64,000 nucleotides of DNA, taken from NCBI RefSeq assembly GCF_050920415.1, contig NZ_CP169310.1. The stretch is one strand, 5' to 3'. Positions 28,052-34,000 of this stretch are shown here, one piece after another. Each line of letters starts with the position of its first letter. Within the stretch, counting starts at the first letter, position 1. The position numbers were made by a program. Source of the stretch: Escherichia coli (GTDB lineage: Bacteria; Pseudomonadota; Gammaproteobacteria; Enterobacterales; Enterobacteriaceae).

Positions 28052-31000
28052 TTATCACAGTCAGGCCAGTCAGAACGGGATATCGTCTGAAAACCCGTAA
28101 TCCTCCCCCTCCGGCGGTTGCGGCTGAGGATGACCGCTGAACTGTTGCCCCTCTTCCGGCTGAGTCTGAGCACCTGCGGCACGTCCCAGCATCTGCATGG
28201 TGCCCGTGGTCTTAACAAGAATTTCGGTGACGTAACGGGTGATACCGTTATCCTCCCGGCTACGGGTGCGAAGATGACCTTCGATGTAGACCTGCGCGCC
28301 CTTGCGCAGATATTCGCCAGCCACTTCCGCGAGCTTGCCGAACAGCACCACGCGGTGCCATTCCGTCAGTTCCTTAATTTCTCCCGTCTGTTTGTCGCGC
28401 CAGCTTTCTGACGTGGCCACCTGCAGGTTTGCCACTGCGCCCCCGTTGGGGATGTAACGGACTTCCGGGTCTTTACCCAGACGACCAACGAGTACAACCT
28501 TGTTAATTCCACGAACTGCCATGATGTGCCTCCTTCTGTTGATGTTTTCAGCCCCCATCACCCGTTGAGTTTCGGGAGCCGCGGTTTTGACGTTTTGCGG
28601 GGACCGGTCTTTTGTTCCCTCCGGTATTAACCATCACCCGTTTGAGAACCTTCGCCGCAAGGGGCATCACTGCCACGGCCGGAAACGACTGTCCGGGGGC
28701 AGACCGCAAAAGTTTTTGCCTGCTTTTGGGCAAAAACTTTTGTGGGATGTGCATTTCACCCCTGGACTGGCGGAGACGGTTGTGGCTGTCTTTGCCCCCG
28801 GCGACAGGGGCTTACACGGGTGTATGGCACCGGATACAACAACGGGCAGGCACCCGCCGCAACGACGAAGAGCGCGTGCGCGAAACGGCGTTGCCCCTCA
28901 CATCCCGGCGGCCTTTTGCCGGGATGCCAGGAGCGCAGGCCACGGCGCGACAGAGGCGGCGCGACCGTTCCGGTCGCTGCAAGCCGGGGGTTTTCACGCA
29001 TCGGACCGTAGCGACAGCCCGAAACCGCGCCAGCGGGTTCGGCGGAGACTGGCAGGTGCGCCAGCAGCTGCCTGTCGGAGCCGGGCCTGACGACCGGATG
29101 CCGCCAGGCAGCCGGGAGCCGAAGGGGCGCCCGGCAGACAGGACAACACTGCAGTAGTCAGAATCAGAGCAGCAGGAAAAAGAAGAACAGTAGCAGTAGC
29201 AGTAGCAGTAGCAGTAGCAGTAGCAGTAGCAGTAGCAGTAGCAGTAGCAGGAACAACAACATCAGTAACAGACAAATGACAGGCATGAAGAAACAGAAGC
29301 CCCCATCAGAACGTCCGCGTAATGAAAGGGGCGGCGCGTCAGCGCGGCCCCTTTCAGCGCCGCCGGCGCGCGGTTTTTTCCCGGCGCGGGCAGACAGGCA
29401 TTTATCCTCCCGCCTGCCCGGCGTCATCAGGCACGCAGACGAATAATCATCGTCGGAACACGTGTATAAGCAAACGTACCGCGTGGCAGCACCTCGCGGA
29501 CGTCAGAAAACGGTAACAGCTTCTCCTGCTGGCGCGGCCCGTTCAGACAGACGGCAACCAGCACGCCCCCCGGACGCAACAGGGAAAAAGCCCGCAGGAT
29601 ATGCCGGATATCCTGCCCGTGACTGAACGGCGGATTCATAATAATCCGGCTGTAATACTGCGCCGGCTGCCATTCCATGAAGTCACCATGCTGCACCCTG
29701 ACACCGTTAAAATTTTCCCGCAGATACCGGACCAGTCCGCTGTTAATCTCCACCGAATCACACATGGCCCCCGGCGCGGTATCCCGAATCGCCCGCAGTA
29801 TGGCTCCGGTGCCGGCAGAGGGTTCCAGAATGTGATCACGGTTGCTGATCTCCGCCAGTGTCACCAGGCGCTTACAGACCGGGGCAGGTGTCACAAAAAG
29901 CTGAGATTCAGCCCGGATTTCAGCAACCGGCGCGGCGTTATCCAGCCTTGCGCGCATCAGCCGGATACGTTCTCTTAACTGACTGTGCATGTCATTATCT
30001 CCGTCATACCCCGGGGCTTTTCCCCGGGGATAAGCCTTATTTCTGCGGGATTTCCGTGATTTTCATGTCGGTGATATACACATTCACCAGGCGGAAATTA
30101 TTGTCCATTGTGCGGCGGTAACGATATGCCCCGTGGTCTTCTGCCTCTGCCACACTGCGCACGGCCTTACAGTCCCGGGGCAGGGCAGCCCACTGTGCCT
30201 TTGTCATTTCCCGGAAACCTTCTCCCGGATAGTTGACAACAGGCGGGCGCTTCGCGGCCTGTCTGGCGACGGCGGCCTCTTCTGCCGATGGTGCTTTGTA
30301 GTCCGTGATGCGATCGGGCGTCACTTTCATCGTGCCGCTGTACCCGAGAAAACTGTAATTTGGCGTTGTGACTGAACTCACCGCCCCGTTGCTTTTGTTC
30401 ACACGGATGATGGTCAGCCACTCGCCCCGGCTGAAAACCTGCCCGCCCGGCTCAAAATCCTGTGTCCGGGTAACCACGCCGCCGCTTTCGTCCAGCATGG
30501 CACGCTCATAGATCAGGCGGTTCTGATAGTGGTTAACCCAGCGTTGCTGACGCTGAATCTGCCGTTCATGACAGCGGATCGCAATTTCGCGGGCCTGCTC
30601 CGTGGTGATGATGTCATCATCCAGGGCCGACCATAACGATCGACTTCCTTCATACTGGCTTTTTTCTGCCGGGCGCGGATACGTATCCAGCGGGAAACAG
30701 GCGCTGATATGGTCATGACTGCTGATGAGTTTTGCCATATTCAGATCCAGCGATTCAGCCCGCCACATCGTCAGATATTTCTGCGACTGCGCGATGGTCT
30801 TTTCAGACTTGCGCAAATCAGCTTCGATTTTTTTGATACGACGCCAGCGAACGTCCGGACGTTCTTTATACTTCGCGTGAAGCAGTGCCGACCGCGCCCG
30901 CTCTTCCCAGTATTCCGCACGTTCAAAGAGCATCACGGCACGTTTCATGCCGTTTTCAATACGCTGCGCATCACGACGGGCGCGGCGTTCACTGTGATGC

Positions 31001-34000
31001 CCCACAAGAATGGGCTGACCGGGCGGGATCATCGCGGCCAGTCTTTCCACTTCATCAAGTGCCTGTGCGGATTCACTGGCCCGCTTTCCGCTGTATCCGG
31101 TAAACCGCTCCGCCCGTGCTTCCTGACGTTCAGCGAGCGTGCTGTCTTCATCCTCAATCTCTCCGGCAAGTGAGAGGAGCACGTCTTCCCGGCCCGGTGT
31201 CCAGGCTGGCGCCACAAACAGCGCCTGTTTGGGTGCCCAGCGGAAACCGGCATCATGAACTTTTTTATACGTCTCCGGGTCAAGACGTGACGCGGCATAC
31301 AGGCGCAGTTTGTTGTCATCCGGTGAGTAGGTCGCACGGTACATCTGCACAGGGCTGGCGGCTTCCGGGGCGGTCATGGTGATTGCTGCTAATGTCATAA
31401 AATGTTCTCCTTCCGTCTGTTGCCGCCCCTCGCGGGGCGGCTCACCTCATCAGTTAAAAGCGCGTTTCAGTTCGAGTGTGCGGAGCACCTGCCCGAAGGC
31501 CGTGTTTTTCATGGCGGGGATGTGTACACCACGCCCCCGGTGAAAACTCCGGGCTATGTGTCGCCCGAAGGCTTTCTGCACGGGGTCAATTTCCGGCGCG
31601 GGGATGTCTTCGCGTCTGAAACGGGGATGACGGCGGGGCTTTACAGCCGCTGAGGAAGGTGAAACAATGCTTACAGTCATAAATGGATGCCTTATGACAA
31701 GTGGATTAACAATGCCGTCAAAATTGGTCGCACAATTCTTACGGCGTGGATTAAGCAGGTCCCTGACCTGCTTTTTTCATATCTGCATCTGACGCTTTCC
31801 GGTGTTTTCCTCCTTCTGTTCCTGCGTTCTCATTACCTGCCAGCCGGATGACTGACAGAACAAATAAATGCGTATTGCCGGAGCCTGAAATAAATCCTGA
31901 TTTTTAAAGAACATCACCCGTTGAGTTTCGGGAGCCGCGGTTTTGACGTTTCGCGGGAACCTGCTGCTGTATTCCCTGTGGTATGAACTTCACCCGTTTG
32001 AGAACCTTCGCCGCAAGGGGCATCACTGCCACGGCCTGACGCACCTGTCCTGGGCAGAACGCAAAATTTTTTACCGGGTTTTGGGTAAAAAATTTTGTGG
32101 GCTGTTCATTTACCCTGGACAGTCAGTGCGGCAGGTTGTGGCTGTATCAGCCCCCGGCGACAGGGACTCATACGGGTGTGTGGCACCAGGCAGGCAATGA
32201 GCAGGGACCAGCCGCAACGACGTGAAGCGCGTGCGCGAAACGGCGTTGCGCCTTACATCCCGGTGTCTTTTTGCCGGGATGCCGGGAGCGCAGGCCACGG
32301 CGCGACAGAGGCGGCGCGACCGGAACGGTCGCTGCAAGCCAGGGTTTCGCGTCAGGGGTGGAAACCCGCTAGGGCGGAGACAGCTCCGCTGGCTCCGTTC
32401 ACGACAGCCCGCCCCGCCAGGGGGACGCCCGGGAAAGCCATAAACAGGAGAGGAACGGAAATAAGAAGAGGAAGAAGAAGAACAGTAACAGGCACGGTAA
32501 CCACAGAAAAATAACATCAGAAAAAAATATTCCGGACACATCACAAACGGGAAGGGTAACGGGCTACGCGCCAGCGTGGCCCGCTTCCCTTCCGGCAGGC
32601 GCCAGCCTGCCAGGGGTTTTCGCGCGGGCTGACAGGCGGCCTCCACCGCCTGCCCCTGTATCACCTGTGCCTGCTGCCCTGAAGGATGTAGTGACCACCG
32701 AGGAAAACCGCCTGCTGATTCGCCACAAAATCACAGATTTCATCAACAATCTGCGCGGTGGTGAGCGGTTTCTGCCCCATTTCACGACGCCGCGCATTAA
32801 TCACGGCCCTGTAATTACGCAGAATTTCGCGGGTTTCCGTGCTGATATTCATTACCCGTTCTCCCCGTCCAGCGCCTGACGCATCACCCGCATAATCTCA
32901 CGTTCTTCCCTGACAAATGCGTCACCGTCGCCCCCGTTCTCGCTCCCTACAGCATGGAGGCGATAAATTTCACTACCAGCCATCACCATCACTTTTTCCA
33001 GCAGCACCGCAGGGACTGTTACAAGACGGTTTACGCGCTTTTCCTCCATCAGTTCATTGACAATATCGGAAACAACTCTGTCACATGCGCCATATACAAA
33101 AGCATCGTCCAGCCGCTGCATGACGGTTTCCAGCTCATCGTCTGTCAGACTCCAGTCCTGGGCTATGTGACGCACATCCCCGCGGGTCAGCACCACGGCA
33201 AAAACGCATTCACTGTCCGGCACGTCTGTATCCAGTACATCGCGGATAACTTCTTTAACAGTACAGTACATGTTCTCGTCTCCTTTACAGGGGCGGCATT
33301 GCCGCCCCGTCCGTTAATCAGTCCAGTGCCGCGTAAATCGCGTTGCATTCGGGGTGAAATTCGATGTGGCTCCACAACTGCGCATCGCGCATCCGGTAAA
33401 GGTGTGTCAGTCCCGCATCCCCGCTGTCGTGGTACAGCCACAACTGGCGGTTAATCACAAGGGAAGTCAGGATGATACCTGCGGCATCAGCACTCACAGT
33501 GCGGTCAAACCAGTTTTCACCGTTGACCAGATGAAAACGGTCGCCATCCGGCATCATGTAACCGCCACCGTCCGGCAGGCGGATGAAATGCCAGAAGCCT
33601 CCCTGATATTCCGGCATCATTTTTTGCGCCAGCGCGTACACATACGCCTCGGCATACAGAAAATCGTTGCCAAACAGGTAAGGCAGAAAGGAGAGACGGT
33701 CACACTCTTCAACGTACAGAGTGACAGGTTTCGCATACTGCATGATGTTTTCCTCCGTTGTTCACATATTCCGCGACACCGGGCGGTGCCGTGCCTCCAT
33801 AAAAGCCGGGCGATAAGGCGGGGATGCACAGGGCGCAAGGGAAGCCGCAGCCTGACGCACACGGCTGGCGGGAGTTGGAGGGTGAGACCGCGAAATCTGA
33901 GCGGGTGAACGACCGGAAAATCACGGCAGACGGGAAGGAGGGACCGGGTGACCGCAGCGGCGAAGCGTACCCTTGCATCCCTGCCAGCCCGGCTAAGATG

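What the first reader, a model, noticed from the sequence alone, without database searches (positions are those of the whole stretch)
29427..31680. Candidate anti-defence unit between two structured repeats: orphan methyltransferase, 453 aa unknown protein and small basic ORF
Three co-directional genes sit between repeat copies 3 and 2, directly upstream of ssb, the place where leading-region anti-restriction and anti-SOS genes are known to cluster. The 187 aa protein has SAM motif I (EPSAGTGA) and motif IV (NPPF) but no partner restriction gene. The 453 aa and 76 aa proteins have no function I can assign. Their position and early-promoter context make them candidates for functions that protect incoming DNA.
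Basis: inference. Interest (0 to 1): 0.6.

Follow-up and report, generated by a model that had tools for sequence, protein, structure and literature searches.

The report
Split methyltransferase in plasmid leading region
The "orphan" methyltransferase and the unknown 453-residue protein next to it are the two halves of one enzyme that is a single chain in most relatives, placed behind a single-strand DNA promoter so that a conjugative plasmid can probably methylate, and so protect, its DNA as it enters a new cell.

Summary
Three co-directional minus-strand genes (76 aa, 453 aa, 187 aa) lie between two copies of the Frpo/ssi single-strand promoter repeat, directly upstream of ssb, in an IncF leading region found in more than 5000 sequenced plasmids.

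The interpretation needs revising. The 453-aa protein (DUF3560, "YdbA") and the 187-aa methyltransferase are the two parts of a protein that is one chain of about 650-700 aa in most relatives. Of the 92 best representatives that are at least 600 aa long, 86 carry both methyltransferase motifs. The C-terminus of the fused forms is 40% identical to the whole 187-aa protein.

The 187-aa protein is a bare catalytic core of the TaqI/DarB type for adenine-N6 methylation, with no target-recognition domain. The 453-aa partner has a confident predicted structure but no analogue among solved structures.

All three genes are under purifying selection. F and pESBL, the two plasmids used for zygotic-induction experiments, lack the module. 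F carries the footprint of its loss by recombination between the flanking repeats.

The 76-aa basic protein is a separate, dispensable leading-region family.

A role in protecting incoming DNA is plausible but untested. Both gene families are already listed in Samuel et al. 2024, the larger one as uncharacterised. This is a moderately interesting new variant of a known kind.

The parts
31912..32510 (.). Frpo/ssi class-1 single-strand DNA promoter repeat, copy 3. The hairpin forms in the + (transferred) strand and transcription runs towards lower coordinates. The homologous core is 31912-32347. It is followed, up to about 32510, by a tract that is pyrimidine-rich on the minus strand.
   Evidence: Direct-repeat families D2 and D4-D6. 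blastn shows 83.7% identity to copy 2 and 93.3% identity over 451 nt to F Frpo2 (L002 9162-9610). The + strand DNA folds at -128 kcal/mol, z = -7.4, and 0 of 100 shuffles fold as well.
31450..31680 (-). Gene for a 76-aa, very basic (pI 11.9) protein. This is a conserved leading-region family of unknown function and is probably not part of the enzyme.
   Evidence: 225 homologues, nearly all 76 aa long and 72-97% identical, across Enterobacterales. dN/dS 0.20. Invariant motifs RRHxR, GRHI and VxIPAM. A paralogue 46% identical lies in pESBL at L014:16075-16341. Only a marginal Pfam hit to an HU-like domain, E 0.0024. Absent from Pantoea L012 and from the loci with fused genes.
30037..31398 (-). 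Gene for the 453-aa DUF3560 protein ('YdbA'). This is the non-catalytic half of the split methyltransferase and is the predicted nucleic-acid-binding or targeting subunit.
   Evidence: Pfam PF12083 at residues 89-206, E 8e-37. It aligns with residues 1 to about 450 of fused proteins of 650-700 aa. AF2 model has pLDDT 93.9 and pTM 0.83. No analogue in the PDB. The helical core has pI 10.2 and invariant arginines. dN/dS 0.06.
29991..30036 (-). Junction between the two halves. It holds a CCCCGGGG-AAAAG-CCCCGGGG palindrome, then a GGAG ribosome-binding site 8 nt before the methyltransferase ATG. The two ORFs are in different frames.
   Evidence: Sequence read directly. The junction differs in other lineages: 54 nt in frame in Edwardsiella, 90 nt in frame in Pantoea, and a 4-nt overlap in metagenome contig L018.
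29427..29990 (-). Gene for the 187-aa catalytic half. It is a class-I SAM-dependent adenine-N6 methyltransferase core with motif I EPSAGTG, motif IV NPPF and a C-terminal LPxGTF motif. It has no target-recognition domain.
   Evidence: Best PDB match is the M.TaqI catalytic domain only, E 5e-6. Pfam MTS/RrnaAD. PHROG families of giant phage proteins, 1e-32 to 1e-22. PADLOC mad2, 2.8e-20. P1 DarB N-terminal methyltransferase, E 3e-6. 40% identity to the C-terminus of fused P0132 and P0175. In the AF2 model it is a seven-strand Rossmann fold with nothing beyond it. dN/dS 0.15.
29188..29250 (.). Perfect hexanucleotide array (CAGTAG) x 10.5 between the methyltransferase stop codon and Frpo copy 2.
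   Evidence: TRF: period 6, 100% matches, score 126. Copy 1 diverges from copy 2 exactly at the start of this array.
28556..29183 (.). Frpo/ssi repeat copy 2, the single-strand promoter of the ssb to psiB operon. It forms the downstream boundary of the module.
   Evidence: It is 99.2% identical to copy 1 (20425-21044) over 620 nt.
28070..28561 (-). Plasmid ssb, the first gene of the next operon (context only).
   Evidence: NCBIfam NF010292, 296.7 bits against a cut-off of 265. Annotated in L001.

Best explanation
The unit is an early ('zygotic') operon of an IncF leading region. It encodes a two-subunit adenine-N6 methyltransferase, preceded by a small basic protein.

Expression. When the transferred strand (the window's + strand; the nick site lies to the left, near 16.7 kb) enters a recipient, Frpo copy 3 folds into a long hairpin that imitates a double-stranded promoter. 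RNA polymerase then transcribes the 76-aa gene, the DUF3560 gene and the methyltransferase gene towards oriT. Expression stops once the complementary strand is made.

The enzyme. The 187-aa product is only a TaqI/DarB-type catalytic core and has no target-recognition domain. The 453-aa DUF3560 product is the part that is covalently joined to this core in most relatives. I propose that the two assemble in trans. The DUF3560 subunit, through its basic helical core and flanking beta-domains, would bind nucleic acid or position the catalytic core on the incoming plasmid DNA. Adenines would then be methylated with broad specificity before host restriction enzymes see the new duplex. This would work in parallel with the unrelated M.EcoGIX-type methylase that the same plasmid carries at 35621-36304.

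Shown: gene structure; repeat and hairpin; homology; the fusion/split relationship; strict adjacency; purifying selection; and loss of the module in F by recombination between repeats.

Inferred: physical association of the two proteins; DNA as the substrate; broad specificity; and the anti-restriction benefit.
For: Fusion/split relationship:
- Of the 150 best representatives at 50% clustering, 91 carry methyltransferase motif I plus NPP[FYW] downstream of the DUF3560 region. Among those of at least 600 aa the count is 86 of 92.
- 80 of 102 aligned members hit Pfam MTS.
- The C-terminus of fused P0132 and P0175 aligns with nearly the whole 187-aa protein at 40% identity, E 1e-33 and 4e-29.
- tblastn with fused P0147 covers at least 80% of the query in one place in 4965 of 5000 plasmid records, so the two genes are practically always adjacent and collinear.
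- Splits have arisen independently with different junctions: Edwardsiella, Pantoea, and a phage-like contig where the two genes overlap by 4 nt and sit near a Lar restriction-alleviation gene.

Catalytic core without a recognition domain.

DNA as the likely substrate: strongest matches are PHROG families of giant phage proteins, some named 'DNA methyltransferase' (1e-32 to 1e-22), PADLOC mad2 and type II methyltransferases, internal-virion proteins of F116-like phages, and P1 DarB. This is the TaqI/EcoKI-like clade that Iyer et al. describe in polyvalent proteins delivered with DNA (PMC5512222).

Same neighbourhood for fused orthologues: ssb, DUF932, kleA, radC, an antirestriction gene and a large ParB-like gene in betaproteobacterial plasmids.

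Promoter: and PMC9849209.

Selection.

Transcription: in pO157 the DUF3560 transcript rises 5-fold together with the other leading-region genes after ciprofloxacin (PMC11125564).

Precedent: M.EcoGIX protects pESBL on entry (PMC7736820).
Against: - No experiment shows methylation by this family, or any effect on restriction.
- A profile search against PDB sequences scores rRNA adenine dimethylases (Dim1/KsgA, 5.9e-9) as high as M.TaqI (2.2e-8). NCBIfam's best but far sub-threshold hits are Erm and KsgA. The substrate class is therefore not settled by sequence.
- The DUF3560 part has no detectable similarity to any known DNA-binding or target-recognition domain.
- The concatenated AF2 model has pTM of only 0.64 and no error map was available, so a defined interface is not shown.
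- At least one long DUF3560 protein (P0163) has no adjacent methyltransferase gene within a 6-9 kb contig.
- F and pESBL transfer well without the module, so it is dispensable under laboratory conditions.
- Transcription of this operon from Frpo copy 3 has not been measured, because both plasmids with published early-conjugation transcriptomes lack the module.
Confidence: 0.55

Rival explanations
1. The two proteins act independently. The 187-aa enzyme is a self-sufficient, non-specific orphan DNA methyltransferase. The DUF3560 protein has its own separate anti-defence or establishment activity, and the frequent fusion only reflects co-expression.
For: Stand-alone DUF3560 proteins occur in phages (phrog_6744, phrog_17519). 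One 452-aa homologue has no neighbouring methyltransferase gene. Non-specific small methylases are known (M.EcoGII is cited in PMC7736820).
Against: The fused architecture dominates the family. The two genes are adjacent in about 99% of the 5000 best plasmid hits. Independent splits keep the gene order, and one shows translational coupling. The catalytic core lacks any domain that could hold DNA.
Confidence: 0.15
2. The enzyme methylates something other than DNA, such as an adenine in host rRNA or tRNA, or a protein glutamine (HemK-like NPPY chemistry). The DUF3560 part would be the adaptor, and the effect would be to reprogram the recipient rather than to protect DNA.
For: Dim1/KsgA, Erm and HemK appear among the best PDB, NCBIfam and Pfam matches at E-values similar to M.TaqI. 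Another leading-region protein, YfjB, is reported to reprogram the host (PMC13370423 abstract).
Against: Much stronger matches (1e-20 to 1e-32) go to methylase domains of phage giant proteins, to mad2 and to type II methyltransferases. The LPxGTF motif is shared with DarB. KEGG-based annotation in Samuel et al. is mostly K07317, a DNA adenine methylase. All the Erm/KsgA hits are far below their curated cut-offs.
Confidence: 0.12
3. The enzyme does methylate the incoming DNA, but the purpose is establishment rather than evasion of restriction. Examples would be marking the transferred strand for strand discrimination, avoiding mismatch repair or modification-dependent nucleases, timing complementary-strand synthesis, or regulating early genes.
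For: The module lies between two ssDNA promoters that also prime complementary-strand synthesis (PMC12672017; bioRxiv 2026.01.09.698686). M.EcoGIX associates with DNA polymerase I and affects copy number. The plasmid already carries KlcA/ArdB and an M.EcoGIX homologue for anti-restriction.
Against: No regulatory target or Dam-like site pattern was identified. The nearest relatives sit in phage and plasmid proteins that the literature links to anti-restriction: DarB, and a Lar neighbour in L018.
Confidence: 0.13
4. The split is gene decay. A nonsense or frameshift mutation broke a fused gene, and the two ORFs are a drifting pseudogene pair.
For: In Edwardsiella and Pantoea the two ORFs are in the same frame and separated only by a stop codon and a short spacer. 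Some PLSDB records list only one of the two genes (H14, H21, H24).
Against: dN/dS is 0.06 and 0.15 at saturated synonymous divergence. The downstream ORF has its own ATG and a GGAG ribosome-binding site. All invariant catalytic residues are retained. The split form is conserved across Escherichia, Klebsiella, Salmonella, Citrobacter, Edwardsiella, Pantoea and Serratia.
Confidence: 0.03

Closest known systems
M.EcoGIX / M.BceJIII, the leading-region single-strand-specific m6A methyltransferases (Fomenkov et al. 2020, PMC7736820)
   Same: Both are orphan adenine methylases encoded in the leading region on the transferred strand's template orientation, downstream of a single-strand promoter. Both are proposed to protect entering plasmid DNA. 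This plasmid also carries a 91%-identical M.EcoGIX orthologue at 35621-36304.
   Different: The sequence family is unrelated (only a motif-I match). M.EcoGIX is a single 227-aa PF01555-type protein behind a class-3 promoter. Here the catalytic core is TaqI/DarB-like, sits behind a class-1 Frpo, and comes with a 453-aa DUF3560 partner. Activity, specificity and any link to polymerase I are unknown here.
Phage P1 DarB and the methylase domains of 'polyvalent proteins' (Iyer et al. 2017, PMC5512222)
   Same: The adenine-methylase core belongs to the same TaqI/EcoKI-like clade, with motif I, N-P/V-P-F and LPxGTF. The strongest profile hits go to giant phage proteins and internal-virion proteins. 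The biological moment is the same: protecting DNA at entry.
   Different: There is no SF2 helicase, and no similarity between the 453-aa protein and DarB was found by BLASTP. The protein is made in the recipient from an ssDNA promoter rather than delivered preformed. The accessory module is DUF3560, which that paper does not mention.
M.TaqI (gamma-class N6-adenine DNA methyltransferase, PDB 1AQJ/2IBS)
   Same: It is the best solved-structure match. The alignment covers the catalytic domain including the SAM-binding motif and NPPY/F.
   Different: M.TaqI carries its own C-terminal target-recognition domain in a 421-aa chain. The 187-aa protein ends right after the Rossmann fold.
Type I methyltransferases (HsdM plus the separate specificity subunit HsdS)
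   Same: This is a functional analogy only. In both, the catalytic adenine-methylase subunit cannot recognise DNA alone, and a separate subunit built from globular domains and long helices provides the targeting.
   Different: No homology between DUF3560 and HsdS was detected by sequence or fold search. There is no HsdR and no restriction activity.
Pfam DUF3560 (PF12083), which is family 28 'YdbA' of Samuel et al. 2024
   Same: The 453-aa protein is a clear member (E 8e-37). The family is listed among the 30 largest families enriched in leading regions, at a median position next to methylase family 26.
   Different: That table labels it 'Uncharacterized; DUF3560; Methyltransferase domain protein' because of a structural hit to a fused homologue. 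I found no statement in the papers I searched that it is the other half of the neighbouring methylase.

Membership tests
Class-1 ssDNA-promoter (Frpo/ssi) driven leading-region operon | The genes lie in the leading region, oriented so that the transferred strand is the template (transcribed towards oriT). | tested here: met
   traM, traJ and the SLT gene lie at 15.3-17.5 kb. DUF932, sok, psiA, psiB, the ParB-like gene, ssb and the unit are all on the minus strand to the right. This is the mirror image of F.
Class-1 ssDNA-promoter (Frpo/ssi) driven leading-region operon | A sequence homologous to Frpo lies directly upstream. | tested here: met
   31912-32347 is 93.3% identical to F Frpo2 over 451 nt and 83% identical to Frpo1.
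Class-1 ssDNA-promoter (Frpo/ssi) driven leading-region operon | The transferred strand folds into a long, stable stem-loop. | tested here: met
   -128 kcal/mol, z = -7.4 against dinucleotide-preserving shuffles.
Class-1 ssDNA-promoter (Frpo/ssi) driven leading-region operon | Transient transcription from ssDNA occurs in the recipient. | not testable with these tools
   F and pESBL, which have the published transcriptomes, both lack the module. The only indirect evidence is induction in pO157 after ciprofloxacin.
N6-adenine DNA methyltransferase, gamma class (TaqI/EcoKI-like) | SAM-binding motif I (xPxxGxG) precedes catalytic motif IV (NPPY/F). | tested here: met
   EPSAGTG at residues 56-62 and NPPF at 119-122. 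G60, G62, N119, P120 and P121 are invariant across 84 sequences.
N6-adenine DNA methyltransferase, gamma class (TaqI/EcoKI-like) | A target-recognition domain is present in the same polypeptide. | tested here: not met
   Only 65 residues follow motif IV and they complete the Rossmann fold. The M.TaqI alignment stops inside the catalytic domain.
N6-adenine DNA methyltransferase, gamma class (TaqI/EcoKI-like) | m6A formation on DNA has been demonstrated. | not testable with these tools
   No experimental report was found.
Orphan methyltransferase (no cognate restriction enzyme) | No endonuclease gene lies adjacent. | tested here: met
   The neighbours are Frpo repeats, ssb, DUF905, a ParB-like gene, DUF1380 and KlcA/ArdB.
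DUF3560 (PF12083) | A significant match to the Pfam model. | tested here: met
   E 8.4e-37, covering model positions 3-121 of 124.
DUF3560-methyltransferase fusion family | Both halves are present, collinear and homologous over the full length to single-chain members. | tested here: met
   The 453-aa protein aligns with residues 1 to about 450, and the 187-aa protein with the C-terminal 170-190 residues, of P0132, P0147 and P0175.
DarB-type polyvalent methylase-helicase | The methylase is fused to an SF2/SWI2-SNF2 helicase and delivered as a preformed protein. | tested here: not met
   There is no helicase domain in or next to the unit. Only the methylase core is distantly related.
M.EcoGIX / M.BceJIII family | Sequence homology (PF01555-type methylase). 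| tested here: not met
   BLASTP E 0.18, a motif-I match only. The true orthologue is a different gene in the window.

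The most novel reading that the evidence does not exclude
DUF3560 is a previously unrecognised kind of nucleic-acid-targeting subunit with no analogue among solved structures. It would direct a recognition-domain-less adenine methylase specifically to entering single-stranded or newly converted plasmid DNA, giving a widespread second class of entry-specific methyltransferase. Alternatively, it directs the methylase to a non-DNA host target. The family is present in thousands of resistance plasmids and in phages, yet is missing from the model plasmids.
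Probability: 0.2. Interest if true: 0.7.

Novelty: new variant of a known kind. Interest (0 to 1): 0.45.

Why it matters
The module is carried by most sequenced IncF-type plasmids of Escherichia, Klebsiella, Salmonella and Shigella, the main vehicles of clinical resistance genes. It is nevertheless absent from F and pESBL, on which nearly all early-conjugation experiments were done, so its contribution has never been measured.

Recognising that the uncharacterised DUF3560 family (about 1900 leading-region copies in Samuel et al.) is the missing half of the adjacent methylase turns two vague annotations into one testable enzyme. It also explains why a 187-aa methylase without a recognition domain is conserved. 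And it suggests that these plasmids enter cells with two unrelated protective methylases.

If the DUF3560 part proves to be a new DNA-targeting fold, it would also be of interest for methyltransferase enzymology.

Tried and rejected
- A profile search against PDB sequences matched only the methylase part.
- NCBIfam and PADLOC gave nothing for the 453-aa and 76-aa proteins. PHROGs matched the 453-aa protein only to families of unknown function and gave nothing for the 76-aa protein.
- Phage loci with stand-alone DUF3560 genes consist entirely of hypothetical genes and were uninformative.
- I looked for published early-conjugation expression data, but F and pESBL both lack the module.
- I concatenated the two proteins and folded them with an alignment of natural fusions to look for an interface. 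Both parts fold well, but pTM is 0.64 and no error map is returned, so this was inconclusive.
- The HU-like Pfam hit of the 76-aa protein is marginal (E 0.0024) and I did not rely on it.
- The 76-residue ORF upstream of the fused gene in Alicycliphilus is unrelated to the window's 76-aa protein.
- The 199-aa gene upstream of P0163 is not a methylase.
- I considered whether the largest family in Samuel et al. (YdaB/YdfB/YgdA) is the 76-aa protein or the ORFs inside the Frpo repeats. I could not decide from the names alone.

Full report
WHAT IS THERE

The window is the leading region of a large IncFIA/FIB plasmid. Positions 28000-33300 are 99.7% identical to E. coli plasmid pCFSAN004180G, and at least 5000 PLSDB plasmids match.

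All genes of interest are on the minus strand. In order of transcription they are:
- KlcA/ArdB-type antirestriction gene, 33318-33743
- DUF1380 gene, 32852-33271
- a 63-aa ORF
- repeat copy 3, 31912 to about 32350
- the 76-aa ORF, 31450-31680
- the 453-aa ORF, 30037-31398
- the 187-aa ORF, 29427-29990
- repeat copy 2, 28556 to about 29183
- ssb, then DUF905, a 654-aa ParB-like gene, psiB and psiA
- the hok/sok locus (the Rfam sok match is at 24250-24426)

A third repeat copy lies at 20425-21044. traM, traJ and the SLT gene lie at 15.3-17.5 kb. oriT is therefore to the left, the + strand is the transferred strand, and it is the template for all these genes.

THE REPEATS ARE SINGLE-STRAND PROMOTERS

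Copy 3 is 93.3% identical over 451 nt to F Frpo2. Frpo2 is required in vivo for early expression of ssb and yfjA in transconjugants (PMC9849209). As single-stranded DNA, the + strand of copy 3 folds into a long hairpin of -128 kcal/mol with z = -7.4. I did not see a canonical terminator on the minus strand between the methylase gene and copy 2, so read-through into ssb is possible.

THE KEY RESULT: THE TWO LARGER GENES ARE ONE ENZYME

The 453-aa protein is a DUF3560 (PF12083) protein, E 8e-37 for residues 89-206. An exhaustive search of 1.84 billion cluster representatives found 3892 relatives.

Most of the best hits are 650-700 aa long and align with the query over their first 450 or so residues. 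Of the 150 best, 91 carry a SAM motif I and NPP[FYW] further downstream. Among those of at least 600 aa the count is 86 of 92. Pfam finds a methyltransferase domain in 80 of 102 aligned members.

The C-terminal 170-190 residues of fused proteins P0132 and P0175 align with essentially the whole 187-aa protein at 40% identity, E 1e-33 and 4e-29. The break falls in the proline-rich linker.

tblastn with fused P0147 against PLSDB covers at least 80% of the query in a single place in 4965 of 5000 records. In enterobacterial plasmids the two genes are therefore practically always adjacent and collinear.

The junction differs between lineages:
- 46 nt with a frame change, a palindrome and a GGAG ribosome-binding site in the window
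- 54 nt in frame in Edwardsiella
- 90 nt in frame in Pantoea
- a 4-nt overlap in a phage-like metagenome contig, where the downstream 198-aa protein is 37% identical to the window's methylase

Both halves are under strong purifying selection, dN/dS 0.06 and 0.15. This is a classic fusion ("Rosetta stone") argument that the two products work together. It argues against gene decay.

WHAT KIND OF METHYLASE

The best solved-structure match of the 187-aa protein is the catalytic domain of M.TaqI, E 5e-6. The alignment covers only that domain of the 421-aa enzyme. In the AF2 model the 187 residues form a seven-stranded Rossmann fold and nothing else. It therefore has no target-recognition domain.

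Profile matches are much stronger to methylase domains inside giant phage proteins (PHROGs, 1e-32 to 1e-22; some of these families are named "DNA methyltransferase"), to PADLOC mad2 (2.8e-20) and to type II methyltransferases. By tblastn it matches internal-virion/PLxRFG proteins of F116-like Pseudomonas phages. It is distantly related to the N-terminal methylase of P1 DarB, E 3e-6, including a shared LPxGTF motif.

Iyer et al. describe exactly such a TaqI/EcoKI-like adenine-methylase clade in "polyvalent" proteins that accompany DNA into the recipient (PMC5512222). These results favour DNA as the substrate. However, KsgA/Dim1, Erm and HemK score about as well as M.TaqI in PDB and NCBIfam searches, so the substrate is not proven.

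THE DUF3560 HALF

AF2 with 102 homologues gives a confident model, pLDDT 93.9 and pTM 0.83. It consists of:
- a small alpha/beta domain, residues 20-83
- three helices of 30-40 residues, 88-212, which are the Pfam DUF3560 core, with pI 10.2
- a small insert
- another long helix, 266-304
- a beta-rich C-terminal region, 320-442

Invariant residues include R91, W164, R167, R186, R187, R196, H290, R294 and E298. The loop GQPILVGHHSE is nearly invariant.

No solved structure resembles it beyond generic coiled coils. AFDB neighbours are all family members, from Beta- and Deltaproteobacteria, Acidobacteria, Planctomycetes, Alphaproteobacteria and Vibrio. I infer, but cannot show, that this half binds nucleic acid or otherwise targets the catalytic core.

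One 452-aa homologue has no methylase gene next to it. Short stand-alone DUF3560 proteins exist in phages. The module may therefore have a life of its own.

CONTEXT ELSEWHERE

Fused orthologues sit in the same kind of neighbourhood:
- ssb, DUF932, kleA and radC in Alicycliphilus pALIDE201, a MOBF/MPF_F plasmid
- an antirestriction gene, a second methylase and a large ParB-like gene in a Burkholderia plasmid
- radC, an integrase and an excisionase-type gene in an integrative element

THE 76-AA GENE

It is a real gene. It keeps a fixed length, is 72-97% identical across Enterobacterales, has dN/dS 0.20 and has invariant motifs. The protein is very basic, pI 11.9.

It is missing next to the Pantoea split pair and next to the fused genes. 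It has a 46%-identical paralogue in pESBL, in a different operon with an Frpo-homologous (ssi-type) stretch upstream. I treat it as a separate leading-region family of unknown function. The HU-like Pfam hit is marginal.

PRESENCE AND ABSENCE

F and pESBL have KlcA, DUF1380, the 63-aa ORF, one Frpo and then ssb, with no module.

F's Frpo2 region is 94-100% identical to window copy 3 in its upstream part. It then switches to 92-96% identity with copy 2 in its ssb-proximal part. This is the footprint expected if the module was deleted by recombination between the two direct repeats.

Among capped top-5000 lists, the module-containing arrangement is contiguous in 3325 records. The F-like module-less arrangement is contiguous in 274. 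The model plasmids are thus the minority form, which explains why no expression or deletion data exist.

The only expression evidence I found is in pO157. There the DUF3560 transcript rises 5-fold, together with klcA, DUF1380, ssb and DUF905, after ciprofloxacin (PMC11125564).

Chromosomal CRISPR spacers of K. pneumoniae target this gene and the ssb-methylase intergenic region (PMC6965323 and PMC11781037).

WHAT IS ALREADY KNOWN

Samuel et al. 2024 list both families among the largest families enriched in leading regions:
- family 26: adenine-specific DNA methyltransferase, n = 1957, median position 11
- family 28: "Uncharacterized; DUF3560; Methyltransferase domain protein", n = 1913, median position 12

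They also propose in general that orphan methylases protect entering DNA. The anti-defence idea is therefore not new.

I did not find it stated anywhere that family 28 is the other half of family 26, that the split enzyme lacks its own recognition domain, or that F lost the module by recombination between Frpo copies (literature searches).

VERDICT

The best explanation is a zygotically expressed, two-subunit adenine methyltransferase that protects incoming DNA. My confidence is about 0.85 in the split-enzyme relationship and about 0.55 in the whole functional model. It is a new variant of a known kind, of moderate interest.

Noticed in passing
window 35621-36304 (-): A second, unrelated leading-region methylase. 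This 227-aa protein is 91% identical to M.EcoGIX of pESBL, the experimentally characterised single-strand-specific m6A methylase. The plasmid therefore carries two different early methylases.
   Followed up: yes
L002 (F plasmid) 8800-9760 compared with window 28480-29430 and 31681-32700: F's single Frpo2 is a chimera of window copy 3 (upstream part, 94-100% identity) and copy 2 (ssb-proximal part, 92-96%). This indicates that F lost the 76-aa/DUF3560/methylase module by recombination between the repeats. pESBL lacks the module too. The module-less form is the minority in PLSDB: 274 contiguous records against 3325 in capped lists.
   Followed up: yes
window 20425-21044 and 28564-29183: Frpo copies 1 and 2 are 99.2% identical over 620 nt, while copy 3 is only about 84% identical to either. 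This suggests recent gene conversion or duplication between copies 1 and 2.
   Followed up: partly
window 19176-20261 (+) and 21185-23773 (-): An IS110-family element lies between Frpo copy 1 and the ygeA-like/DUF932 genes (18719-19006, 17779-18528) that this promoter drives in F. An IS66-family element lies on the other side of copy 1. Early expression of the ygeA and ygeB homologues, which matter for F transfer efficiency, may be disrupted in this plasmid.
   Followed up: partly
window 29188-29250: A perfect (CAGTAG) x 10.5 hexanucleotide array lies between the methylase stop codon and Frpo copy 2. A related AAG-rich tract lies beside copy 3 (32463-32482). ORF callers turn the array into poly-Leu or poly-Ala/Thr 'hypothetical proteins'. 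It is probably a length-variable tract.
   Followed up: partly
window 28548-28754 (-), 31904-32044 (-); L001 9549-9755 and 1357-1617: Short ORFs lying entirely inside the Frpo hairpin repeats are annotated as hypothetical proteins in RefSeq records. They are probably by-products of the repeat rather than genes, and they may inflate 'gene family' counts in surveys of leading regions.
   Followed up: no
L014 (pESBL) 16075-16341: An 88-aa paralogue (46% identity) of the 76-aa basic protein lies downstream of ardA in pESBL, with an Frpo-homologous (ssi-type) stretch (L014 15131-15402) upstream of its operon. This points to a wider family of small basic proteins expressed early in conjugation.
   Followed up: partly
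L018 (metagenome contig) 3658-7699: An independently split DUF3560 plus methylase pair, with start and stop codons overlapping, lies in a phage-like array of small genes. The array also holds a Lar restriction-alleviation homologue and a T4 Y16D-like gene.
   Followed up: partly
literature: pO157 (PMC11125564) and K. pneumoniae CRISPR arrays (PMC6965323, PMC11781037): Leading-region genes of pO157, including the DUF3560 gene, are induced 5- to 125-fold by ciprofloxacin. Chromosomal type I-E spacers of K. pneumoniae repeatedly target the DUF3560 gene and the ssb-methylase intergenic region.
   Followed up: partly
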